This document shows positions 10,519-10,995 of a stretch of 64,000 nucleotides of DNA, in pieces (within the stretch, counting starts at the first letter, position 1; each line of letters starts with the position of its first letter). The stretch is from the sequence record MH494197.1. One strand, written 5' to 3'. The position numbers were made by a program, and so were the translations under genes. The notes beneath the pieces were generated by a model. It was not told the DNA's origin. It did no database searches and was given only the letters and a program-made list of their open reading frames with translations. The DNA is from Escherichia phage CMSTMSU.

Positions 10519-10995
10519 TTATTTTAGAAAGTATAAGTGTTTTTCTGCATTAACCAGTCTGTGGTCAATGATTTCTTTGATAACGTTCCAGTTACCACCG
10601 CCTAAATCGGCTCCAATTTTCGGGAAGTGTACATGAACAGTGCGTTCAACGTTACATAAGTAATTGAGTTGTTTGAAAACATCATCGATTGCATCATAAC
10701 TCACATACTTAGAACCGTCATTACCATAGTACTTTTGGGTAATGCAGTTTGCGATAAGCAAATCATCACTTATAGAAGAATATGAAATTTGTCCTGTTCT
10801 TAGAAATCCCATTTCCTTTTCATATGCTTTATAATCATCATATGCCATCGGATAACGATTTCTTAGTTCTTTTGCAAAACCCGAACCCATCTTACCCTGT
10901 GCATTACAACCATGAGCGATTATATGCAACGCGGTTTGATCATCAGTAACAGTGTTGAACAATTCAAACAAATTACCTAGGTGTTCATGTATCAT
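10519..10995 (-). CDS. macro domain protein (ADP-ribose binding/processing)
   Basis: Motif IIAHGCNAQGKMGSGFAKEL typical of macro domain glycine-rich ADP-ribose binding loop; about 160 aa. Confidence 0.6.
   Translation of the reverse strand: MIHEHLGNLFELFNTVTDDQTALHIIAHGCNAQGKMGSGFAKELRNRYPMAYDDYKAYEKEMGFLRTGQISYSSISDDLLIANCITQKYYGNDGSKYVSYDAIDDVFKQLNYLCNVERTVHVHFPKIGADLGGGNWNVIKEIIDHRLVNAEKHLYFLK

What the first reader, a model, noticed from the sequence alone, without database searches (positions are those of the whole stretch)
10519..10995. Macro-domain protein as possible counter to ADP-ribosylation defences
A stand-alone macro domain (IIAHGCNAQGKMGSGFAKEL) sits among small unknown ORFs. 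Phage macro domains can remove ADP-ribose from protein or DNA, for example against DarT-type toxins.
Basis: partly seen in the sequence, partly recalled or inferred. Interest (0 to 1): 0.45.

Follow-up and report, generated by a model that had tools for sequence, protein, structure and literature searches.

The report
Phage macrodomain, likely anti-DarT enzyme
This jumbo E. coli phage gene encodes a small ADP-ribose-removing enzyme related to phage proteins recently shown to undo a bacterial defence that tags viral DNA with ADP-ribose. It is a plausible but ordinary new member of a known counter-defence family.

Summary
The ORF is real: window 10519-10995, minus strand, 158 aa, intact, and 100% identical to a gene of Escherichia phage fEgEco12. 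The window comes from an Asteriusvirus-like jumbo phage.

The protein is a confident macrodomain (AlphaFold pLDDT 94.7). It belongs to the ALC1-like class:
- MacroD-type and viral macrodomains score 14.8 or below.

The TARG1/DarG catalytic lysine is replaced by an invariant Gln (Q87). The same replacement occurs in SCO6735, where that Gln is essential and the enzyme removes DarT-made thymidine ADP-ribose from DNA.

The protein is homologous to T4 Tk.4 (BLASTP 5e-12, hhalign 99.6%). Tk.4 was recently named AdfM, and its knockout sensitises T4 to DarTG2. The protein is also more distantly related to PhiKZ AdfM.

It is untested for this protein and no longer novel. Relatives already annotate the gene as a macro domain or "phosphatase".

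One oddity: the jumbo-phage clade has a conserved Asp (D130) at a phosphate-loop glycine, where an engineered Glu impairs SCO6735.

Rival readings are processing of soluble ADP-ribose derivatives, or removal of ADP-ribose from protein or RNA.

Many neighbouring "small ORFs" are artefacts of single-base deletions typical of uncorrected long-read (nanopore-type) assembly.

The parts
10519..10995 (-). Macrodomain protein gene (158 aa plus stop). It is the orthologue of fEgEco12 g289 and 121Q gp544, and a homologue of T4 Tk.4/AdfM. Key residues: H28, N31, Q87, G128, D130, G132-G134.
   Evidence: ORF. Family, PDB and structure evidence. Homology to T4 Tk.4. Residue mapping. dN/dS 0.10.
11002..11005 (-). 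Shine-Dalgarno-like GGAG, 6 nt upstream of the ATG.
   Evidence: Read directly from the sequence (plus strand ttctcc at 11000-11005).
11012..11035 (.). Perfect 10-bp inverted repeat with a 4-nt loop (AAGGACTCTG-TAAT-CAGAGTCCTT) between the upstream gene g288 and the macro gene. It is terminator-like on both strands. On the gene's strand it is followed by TCTTTC (TCTTTTC in fEgEco12). This suggests the macro gene starts a new or attenuated transcript segment.
   Evidence: scan; the plus-strand hit was the only one found, and 1.6 are expected by chance in this 2.9-kb region. Sequence. The function is inferred, not shown.
10196..10500 (-). Small gene immediately downstream (fEgEco12 g290, 102 aa, PHROG 527, unknown function). 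It starts 19 nt after the macro stop codon and is frameshifted in the window by assembly-type deletions. It is listed as context; no evidence ties it functionally to the macrodomain.
   Evidence: No Pfam hit.

Best explanation
The gene encodes a stand-alone, catalytically competent macrodomain of the ALC1-like class, SCO6735/Bt_1257-like and Gln-type. It is an orphan, antitoxin-like ADP-ribosylglycohydrolase of the AdfM kind.

Proposed mechanism (inferred). When a DarTG2-carrying E. coli is infected, the DarT2 toxin ADP-ribosylates thymidines in single-stranded phage DNA and blocks replication. The phage macrodomain binds the ADP-ribose between its N31-containing substrate loop and the G128-G134 phosphate-binding loop. 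Q87, held in position by N31, positions the distal ribose, and the ribose-thymine bond is hydrolysed through an activated water molecule, as proposed for SCO6735. This restores unmodified DNA.

Shown here: the fold, the class, conservation of the active-site residues, homology to T4 Tk.4/AdfM, and purifying selection.

Inferred: the enzymatic activity, the DNA-thymidine substrate, and the anti-DarTG2 role in this phage.
For: - Defence model hits. DarG is the only PADLOC hit (1.6e-10). It is also the only significant NCBIfam hit (4.5e-8; the other hit has E 0.11).
- Active site. H28, N31, Q87 and G128 are invariant in 56 homologues. They map onto SCO6735 H24, N27, Q85 and G126. In SCO6735, Q85A abolishes and N27S nearly abolishes thymidine-ADPr-DNA hydrolysis, and the enzyme rescues E. 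coli from DarT (PMC9411070).
- Homology to validated phage factors. T4 Tk.4/AdfM: BLASTP 5e-12 at 29% identity, hhalign 99.6% with E 7.8e-24, sharing the AHGCN, TQ and IGAxxGxGNW motifs. PhiKZ gp104/AdfM: hhalign 98.2%. All three proteins fall in PHROG 335. The best BFVD structural hit is 'tk.4' of Acinetobacter phage 133, E 1.8e-13.
- Experimental basis in relatives. A T4 tk.4 knockout is sensitised to DarTG2 (10.1101/2025.11.20.689424). PhiKZ AdfM removes DarT2-made ADPr from DNA and neutralises DarT2 (PMC13309987).
- Selection. dN/dS is 0.10 against 121Q.
Against: - No experiment exists on this protein or on any Asteriusvirus orthologue.
- Identity to T4 AdfM is only 27-29%, and to PhiKZ AdfM 17%.
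- D130 replaces the phosphate-loop glycine (SCO6735 G128). The G128E mutation substantially lowers SCO6735 activity on DNA. The Asp is fixed in the whole jumbo-phage clade, which could signal a different substrate.
- SCO6735 K34 and K89, which help bind DNA, are not conserved in position (S38, N92), although K35, K88 and K96 lie nearby.
- The same class also contains enzymes acting on protein Glu/Asp-ADPr, O-acyl-ADP-ribose (TARG1) and ADP-ribose-1''-phosphate (Poa1p).
- Iyer et al. 2022 argued from context that most phage macrodomains act on small ADPr derivatives.
- The phage encodes its own Sir2 and NUDIX enzymes.
Confidence: 0.6

Rival explanations
1. The protein processes soluble ADP-ribose derivatives rather than DNA adducts. 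One version has it deacylating O-acetyl-ADP-ribose made by the phage's own Sir2. Another has it dephosphorylating ADP-ribose-1''-phosphate (the legacy 'phosphatase / Appr-1-p processing' annotation). Either would feed NUDIX enzymes and NAD+/nucleotide recycling, or clean up after RNA repair.
For: - TARG1, of the same class, is named O-acetyl-ADP-ribose deacetylase 1 in the PDB.
- The window encodes a Sir2-family protein directly followed by a Nudt16-like NUDIX, a DUF4326 protein and a PNKP. A second NUDIX and a CCA-adding enzyme lie 0.8-2.4 kb from the macro gene.
- Iyer et al. [quoted passage not shown]
Against: - Poa1p has Ser, not Gln, at the key position and lacks the conserved loop sequence.
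- The Sir2/NUDIX pair lies 36 kb away, not in the same cluster.
- The closest functionally tested phage homologue (T4 Tk.4) gave a DarTG2-specific phenotype as the single significant hit.
- The closest characterised enzyme (SCO6735) removed DNA ADP-ribosylation thoroughly but protein ADP-ribosylation only partly.
- I did not look for a KptA/Tpt1 gene.
Confidence: 0.15
2. The protein removes ADP-ribose from proteins or RNA rather than from DNA. Targets could include host- or phage-made Glu/Asp-ADPr on proteins, or mRNA ADP-ribosylation of the CmdTAC type. In this reading the clade-specific Asp130 retunes specificity.
For: - SCO6735 and TARG1 also hydrolyse Glu/Asp-linked protein ADP-ribosylation.
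- D130 is fixed in the jumbo-phage clade, at a position where an acidic residue impairs DNA-ADPr hydrolysis in SCO6735 and would repel DNA.
Against: - No ART gene or protein target was identified near the gene.
- The gene keeps the N31/Q87 pair that SCO6735 needs for DNA-ADPr hydrolysis.
- Position 130 is variable among active relatives. PhiKZ AdfM has Ala there and removes DNA-ADPr in vitro. T4 Tk.4 has Gly.
Confidence: 0.17
3. The protein is a binding-only, non-catalytic macrodomain that sequesters ADP-ribose-containing signals, or inhibits DarT by direct binding without hydrolysis.
For: - The canonical catalytic Lys and Asp of TARG1 are both absent.
- A catalytically dead SCO6735 (Q85A) still inhibits DarT by interaction.
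- D130 might hinder catalysis.
Against: - Q87, N31, H28 and G128 are invariant across 56 homologues. That is the pattern of an active site, not of a mere binding pocket.
- The Gln-type site is catalytically active in SCO6735.
- Omega is 0.10.
Confidence: 0.05

Closest known systems
T4 Tk.4 = AdfM (anti-DarT factor macrodomain; bioRxiv 10.1101/2025.11.20.689424)
   Same: Both are stand-alone phage macrodomains of about 155-158 aa from E. coli myoviruses. They share PHROG 335 and the AHGCN, TQ (Gln-type) and IGAxxGxGNW motifs. BLASTP E 5e-12, hhalign 99.6%.
   Different: Identity is only 27-29%. T4 Tk.4 has the short loop after the Gln (as in DarG and TARG1) and Gly at the position where this protein has Asp130. 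The genomic neighbourhood differs: tk-vs-regB in T4, against CCA enzyme, NUDIX and glutaredoxin here.
SCO6735 (Streptomyces coelicolor) and Bt_1257 (PDB 5E3B, 2FG1): Gln-type subclass of ALC1-like macrodomains
   Different: They are cellular proteins. Identity is 26-29%. The loop is 2 residues shorter than in Bt_1257. Gly128 is replaced by Asp130. Lys34 and Lys89 are not conserved in position.
PhiKZ gp104 = AdfM (Cell Rep 2026, PMC13309987)
   Same: A stand-alone macrodomain from a jumbo phage, in the same PHROG 335 and the same ALC1-like class. hhalign 98.2%.
   Different: gp104 is DarG-type: it has the TK catalytic lysine and matches Mtb DarG at 9e-25. Identity to this protein is 17%. It is imported into a phage nucleus, which I believe Asteriusvirus-type phages are not known to form (my own knowledge, not tested).
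DarG antitoxin of DarTG2 (T. aquaticus, M. tuberculosis; PDB 5M31, 5M3I)
   Different: This protein has no C-terminal DarT-binding domain and no adjacent DarT gene. It has Gln instead of the catalytic Lys. Its score is far below the NCBIfam cut-off (32.7 against 250 bits).
Yeast Poa1p (ADP-ribose-1''-phosphate phosphatase; PDB 6LFQ)
   Different: Poa1p has Ser at the Gln87 position, a large insertion before the phosphate loop, and a different loop sequence.

Membership tests
Macro domain superfamily (Pfam PF01661) | Macrodomain alpha/beta fold | tested here: met
Macro domain superfamily (Pfam PF01661) | Score at or above the Pfam gathering threshold (22 bits) | tested here: not met
   20.2 bits, E 5.7e-4. 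This is a divergent member. Many homologues at 40-69% identity carry a precomputed PF01661 hit.
ALC1-like class, SCO6735/Bt_1257 (Gln-type) subclass | Gln in place of the TARG1 Lys84 / DarG Lys80 catalytic lysine, positioned by a conserved Asn (SCO6735 Q85, N27) | tested here: met
   Q87 and N31 are invariant in 56 homologues. They align with SCO6735 Q85 and N27.
ALC1-like class, SCO6735/Bt_1257 (Gln-type) subclass | Extended 'mobile loop' after the Gln (about 5 residues longer than in TARG1 or DarG) | tested here: met
   From Q87 to Y100 is 14 residues in all but 2 of the 56 homologues (15 in those two). The equivalent is 16 in Bt_1257, 15 in SCO6735 and 10 in TARG1, DarG and T4 Tk.4. pLDDT dips to 79 in this stretch.
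ALC1-like class, SCO6735/Bt_1257 (Gln-type) subclass | Conserved Gly-x-Gly in the phosphate-binding loop (SCO6735 G126, G128) | tested here: not met
   G128 is present, but the second glycine is Asp130. Asp or Glu occupies this position in every member at least 53% identical to the query, and Gly in most others.
ALC1-like class, SCO6735/Bt_1257 (Gln-type) subclass | Hydrolysis of thymidine-linked ADP-ribose on ssDNA | not testable with these tools
   This needs a biochemical assay with a DarT2-modified oligonucleotide.
AdfM (phage anti-DarT factor, macrodomain) | Phage-encoded stand-alone macrodomain homologous to a validated AdfM | tested here: met
   T4 Tk.4: BLASTP 5e-12, hhalign 99.6%. PhiKZ gp104: hhalign 98.2%. 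All are in PHROG 335. It is the only macrodomain in the window.
AdfM (phage anti-DarT factor, macrodomain) | Protects the phage from DarTG2 and/or neutralises DarT2 | not testable with these tools
   This needs plaque assays on DarTG2 hosts or DarT2 co-expression.
DarG antitoxin (type II TA DarTG2) | Two-domain protein of about 330-350 aa with a C-terminal DarT-binding domain; score above the NCBIfam cut-off | tested here: not met
   The protein is 158 aa. The NF048014 match covers only profile positions 20-139 of 338, at 32.7 bits against a 250-bit cut-off.
DarG antitoxin (type II TA DarTG2) | Adjacent DarT (ADP-ribosyltransferase) gene | tested here: not met
   The flanking genes g287, g288, g290 and g291 have no Pfam hit at E below 0.01. 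They are small PHROG unknowns.
Poa1p-type ADP-ribose-1''-phosphate phosphatase | Appr-1''-p phosphatase activity; Poa1p-like active site | tested here: inconclusive
MacroD-type (YmdB / AF1521 / MacroD1) O-acetyl-ADP-ribose deacetylases | Closest sequence and structure neighbours are MacroD-type | tested here: not met

The most novel reading that the evidence does not exclude
The Asteriusvirus / phiKp_21-type jumbo-phage clade has fixed an acidic residue (Asp130, once Glu) in the phosphate-binding loop. Every characterised relative has Gly or Ala there, and an engineered Glu cripples SCO6735. The clade also keeps the long mobile loop. This might mark a macrodomain with a new substrate or mechanism. 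Possibilities include an Asp-assisted hydrolase for protein-, RNA- or signal-linked ADP-ribose, possibly working with the phage's own Sir2, Nudt16-like NUDIX and DUF4326 enzymes, rather than a simple DarG mimic.
Probability: 0.15. Interest if true: 0.55.

Novelty: new member of a known kind. Interest (0 to 1): 0.3.

Why it matters
If the prediction holds, Asteriusvirus-type jumbo coliphages would carry an AdfM-type eraser of DNA ADP-ribosylation. Some of these phages are therapy candidates, and the eraser would help explain their host range on DarTG2-positive E. coli.

The result would also tie together three lines that had not been connected. The Gln-type (SCO6735-like) chemistry would be shown to be the one used by T4 AdfM and by a large share of the roughly 1,500 phage genomes with a homologue. 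The Lys-type (DarG-like) chemistry would be the one used by PhiKZ AdfM.

Practically, the widespread "phosphatase" label on PHROG 335 members is probably misleading and could be updated.

Beyond that, this is a routine functional annotation rather than a discovery.

Tried and rejected
- **Pfam alone.** The hit is sub-threshold (20.2 bits). Taken alone it would have left the domain call in doubt, so I moved to profile and structure evidence.
- **DarG membership.** Rejected. There is no C-terminal domain, no DarT neighbour, and Gln replaces Lys.
- **MacroD/YmdB-type deacetylase.** Some databases label homologues "O-acetyl-ADP-ribose deacetylase (regulator of RNase III)". Rejected as the nearest family.
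- **"Catalytic residues absent means inactive".** Rejected, because the Gln-type site is active in SCO6735.
- **A second macrodomain in the window.** A local tblastn with T4 Tk.4 and PhiKZ gp104 found none.
- **A dedicated promoter.** The sigma-70 scan gave 14 promoter-like sites against 11.7 expected by chance, so it is uninformative.
- **Neighbour-based functional linkage.** g287, g288, g290 and g291 have no informative Pfam or PHROG annotation.
- **ICP1 AdfB.** Checked and set aside. It is a 77-aa DarT binder, not a macrodomain.
- **Not attempted.**
  - Whole-genome search of the phage for NADAR/AdfN, KptA or ART genes outside the window.
  - Survey of DarT2 in E. coli genomes, because no protein mode is offered for that collection.
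  - Inspection of model coordinates around D130, because they are not exposed.

Full report
**Observation**

It occupies window 10519..10995 on the minus strand, starts with ATG, and encodes 158 aa. The quoted peptide IIAHGCNAQGKMGSGFAKEL is at residues 25-44. A GGAG ribosome-binding site lies 6 nt upstream of the ATG. A perfect 10-bp hairpin (11012-11035) separates the ORF from the preceding gene.

**Source of the window**

- The window is 99% identical to Escherichia phage fEgEco12 (375 kb) and about 85% identical to phage 121Q, genus Asteriusvirus. It therefore comes from a jumbo coliphage.
- The macro gene is 100% identical in nucleotides to fEgEco12 g289, annotated "phosphatase".
- It is 90% identical in protein to 121Q gp544, annotated "macro domain-containing protein / Appr-1-p processing".
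- Against 121Q, dN/dS is 0.10, so the gene is under purifying selection.

**Data-quality caveat**

Over 12.4 kb around the gene, the window has 64 short deletions and 2 insertions relative to fEgEco12. Almost all lie in homopolymers or at CCWGG sites, which is the signature of an unpolished long-read assembly. These errors split the CCA-adding enzyme, NUDIX, glutaredoxin, dNMP kinase and tail-sheath genes into short ORFs. Part of the "small unknown ORFs" impression is therefore artefactual. No indel falls inside the macro ORF; the nearest are at 10503 and 11009.

**What the protein is**

- Pfam's Macro model alone is marginal, at 20.2 bits against a 22-bit threshold.
- PHROG 335 matches at 2.9e-46.
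- phmmer finds the solved macrodomains Bt_1257 (1e-15), SCO6735 (3e-11), Poa1p (2e-6) and the DarG macrodomains of T. aquaticus and M. tuberculosis (9e-4 and 8e-3).
- A profile of 56 homologues sharpens these hits:

| Structure | Profile E-value |
|---|---|
| Bt_1257 | 1.6e-26 |
| SCO6735 | 3e-20 |
| Poa1p | 1e-15 |
| DarG (M. tuberculosis / T. aquaticus) | 1.6e-13 / 6.5e-13 |
| TARG1 | 1.9e-11 |
| T. africanus DarTG | 5.8e-9 |
| ALC1 (CHD1L) | marginal (6.4e-3) |

- No MacroD-type protein appears in that search.
- The AlphaFold model built from the alignment is confident, with pLDDT 94.7 and pTM 0.90.
- The only hit in PADLOC, and the only significant hit in NCBIfam, is DarG. It covers the macrodomain part alone and scores far below the full-length cut-off.

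The protein is therefore an ALC1-like-class macrodomain, closest to the SCO6735/Bt_1257 subclass.

**Active site**

I aligned this protein with 121Q gp544, T4 Tk.4, PhiKZ gp104, Bt_1257, SCO6735, both DarG macrodomains, Poa1p and TARG1.

- The lysine that is catalytic in TARG1 (K84) and DarG (K80) is Gln87 here. That Gln is invariant in all 56 homologues.
- SCO6735, Bt_1257 and T4 Tk.4 have the same Gln.
- For SCO6735, Hlousek-Kasun et al. (PMC9411070) reported the following:
  - The enzyme removes DarT-made thymidine-ADP-ribose from DNA faster than DarG or TARG1.
  - It rescues E. coli from DarT.
  - Q85A abolishes activity.
  - N27S nearly abolishes activity, because Asn27 positions Gln85.
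  - G128E substantially lowers activity.
- The equivalents here are H28, N31, Q87 and G128, all invariant.
- The equivalent of SCO6735 G128 is Asp130. In the family alignment this position is Asp (once Glu) in every member at least 53% identical to the query. All of those with long contigs come from jumbo-phage contigs of about 350-380 kb. The position is Gly in most of the more distant members and Val in a Xanthomonas-phage clade.
- PhiKZ AdfM, which is active on DNA in vitro, has Ala at that position.
- The loop after Gln87 is 14 residues. That is close to the "long mobile loop" that defines the SCO6735 subclass, and 4 residues longer than in T4 Tk.4, DarG or TARG1.

The canonical Lys/Asp dyad is absent, but the alternative Gln-type site shown experimentally to work is fully conserved. 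Asp130 is the one real anomaly, and I could not resolve it in silico.

**Link to known phage counter-defence**

Two recent studies independently named phage macrodomains AdfM (anti-DarT factor macro).

- In T4, a transposon screen on a DarTG2 host gave tk.4 as the single significant hit. A clean tk.4 knockout sensitised T4 to DarTG2 (bioRxiv 10.1101/2025.11.20.689424).
- In PhiKZ, gp104 removes ADP-ribose from a DarT2-modified oligonucleotide and neutralises DarT2 toxicity. It is also needed on DarTG2-positive P. aeruginosa (PMC13309987).

I fetched both proteins and compared them with this one.

- T4 Tk.4 matches at BLASTP 5e-12 with 29% identity over 120 aa. It matches the family profile at hhalign probability 99.6% and E 7.8e-24. 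It shares the AHGCN, TQ and IGAxxGxGNW motifs.
- PhiKZ gp104 matches the profile at 98.2%. It is clearly DarG-type, with a TK motif and a 9e-25 match to Mtb DarG.
- All three proteins fall in PHROG 335.
- The best structural match in BFVD is "tk.4" of Acinetobacter phage 133.
- tblastn finds homologues in 1,510 phage records. In T-even-like phages the hit sits in the tk-vs-regB region, where tk.4 lies.

**Mechanism proposed**

The protein is most likely an orphan antitoxin-like DNA ADP-ribosylglycohydrolase. After infection triggers DarT2, it would strip ADP-ribose from thymidines in single-stranded phage DNA using the Gln87/Asn31 water-mediated mechanism proposed for SCO6735. This would allow replication to proceed.

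The fold, class, residue conservation, homology to T4 AdfM and purifying selection are shown here. The activity, substrate and biological role are inferred. I put this at about 0.6.

**Rivals**

1. Processing of soluble ADP-ribose derivatives, either O-acetyl-ADP-ribose or ADP-ribose-1''-phosphate (about 0.15).
   - For: similarity to Poa1p and TARG1; the legacy annotation; and the phage's own NAD/ADPr toolkit in this window. That toolkit comprises a Sir2-family gene at 47235-47983 directly followed by a Nudt16-like NUDIX at 46688-47238, a DUF4326 gene at 36798-37120, a PNKP at 62680-63606, and a second NUDIX and a CCA enzyme next to the macro gene. Iyer et al.'s contextual argument also supports it.
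   - Against: distance from those genes; the Ser-versus-Gln difference to Poa1p; and the DarTG2-specific phenotype of the T4 homologue.
2. Removal of ADP-ribose from proteins or RNA, with Asp130 retuning specificity (about 0.17).
3. A binding-only domain (about 0.05). This is disfavoured by the invariant active-site residues.

**Membership**

It is a macrodomain, shown by fold although it falls just under Pfam's score threshold. It fits the Gln-type ALC1-like subclass on three of four testable features, failing the second loop glycine. It fits the structural and homology definition of AdfM, but the functional criterion cannot be tested here. It is not a DarG antitoxin: it has no C-terminal DarT-binding domain, no DarT neighbour and no catalytic Lys. 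It is not MacroD-type.

**Novelty and verdict**

The gene is already annotated as a macro domain in relatives. Macrodomains are known to occur in about 56% of jumbo phages. The anti-DarT role of phage macrodomains has been demonstrated in T4 and PhiKZ. This is therefore a new, untested member of a known kind.

Two modest additions come from this work. First, the Asteriusvirus protein and T4 AdfM share SCO6735's Gln-type site rather than DarG's Lys-type site. Second, the jumbo-phage clade carries a conserved Asp in the phosphate loop that deserves a mutational test.

Interest: 0.3.

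Noticed in passing
whole window; measured over window 4565-16954: Relative to the 99%-identical phage fEgEco12, the window has 64 short deletions and 2 insertions in 12.4 kb. 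Almost all are in homopolymer runs or at CCWGG (Dcm) sites, the pattern of an unpolished nanopore-type assembly. They frameshift many genes: CCA tRNA nucleotidyltransferase 12320-13427, NUDIX 11804-12210, glutaredoxin 11570-11814, dNMP kinase 7765-8388 and tail sheath 5021-7670. ORF-based readings elsewhere in this window should be treated with caution.
   Followed up: yes
window 46688-47983 (minus strand): A Sir2-family gene (47235-47983; Pfam SIR2 1.4e-19) is directly followed, with a 4-nt overlap, by a Nudt16-like NUDIX gene (46688-47238; PF22327 1.4e-18). This is a phage-encoded NAD+-consuming and ADP-ribose-processing pair of unknown role.
   Followed up: partly
window 36798-37120 (minus strand): A DUF4326 gene (Pfam 2.9e-24) sits between the two anaerobic ribonucleotide reductase genes. 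Iyer et al. 2022 predict that this domain processes terminal phosphates of ADP-ribose derivatives.
   Followed up: no
window 42300-42540: The WGR-domain protein gene of fEgEco12 (g228, 323 aa; Pfam WGR 1.3e-10) is absent from the window. About 1165 bp of the relative is replaced by about 240 bp here, an indel polymorphism between near-identical phages.
   Followed up: partly
window 10519-10995, residue D130 (codon at about 10606-10608): Asp (once Glu) is fixed at the phosphate-binding-loop position that is Gly in SCO6735, DarG, TARG1 and T4 Tk.4. This holds throughout the roughly 350-380 kb jumbo-phage clade. A Val variant occurs in Xanthomonas phage XaC1-like genomes.
   Followed up: partly
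window 9807-10500 (minus strand): Two small genes lie directly downstream of the macro gene: g290 (PHROG 527, 102 aa) and g291 (PHROG 14786, 125 aa). fEgEco12 annotates g291 as 'aminoacyl-tRNA hydrolase', but it has no Pfam support. Their function is unknown. g290 starts 19 nt after the macro stop codon.
   Followed up: partly
window 62680-63606, 55017-56431 and 12320-13427 (minus strand): RNA/DNA end-healing and tRNA maintenance genes lie in the same window: a T4-type polynucleotide kinase-phosphatase (PF25109 5.8e-43), a DNA ligase and a CCA-adding enzyme.
   Followed up: no
Acinetobacter phages vB_AbaM_B09_Aci05 and vB_AbaM_P1 (hits H24, H46): In these roughly 100-kb phages the macrodomain homologue lies next to a nicotinamide phosphoribosyltransferase gene. 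This hints at a link to NAD+ salvage in some lineages.
   Followed up: no
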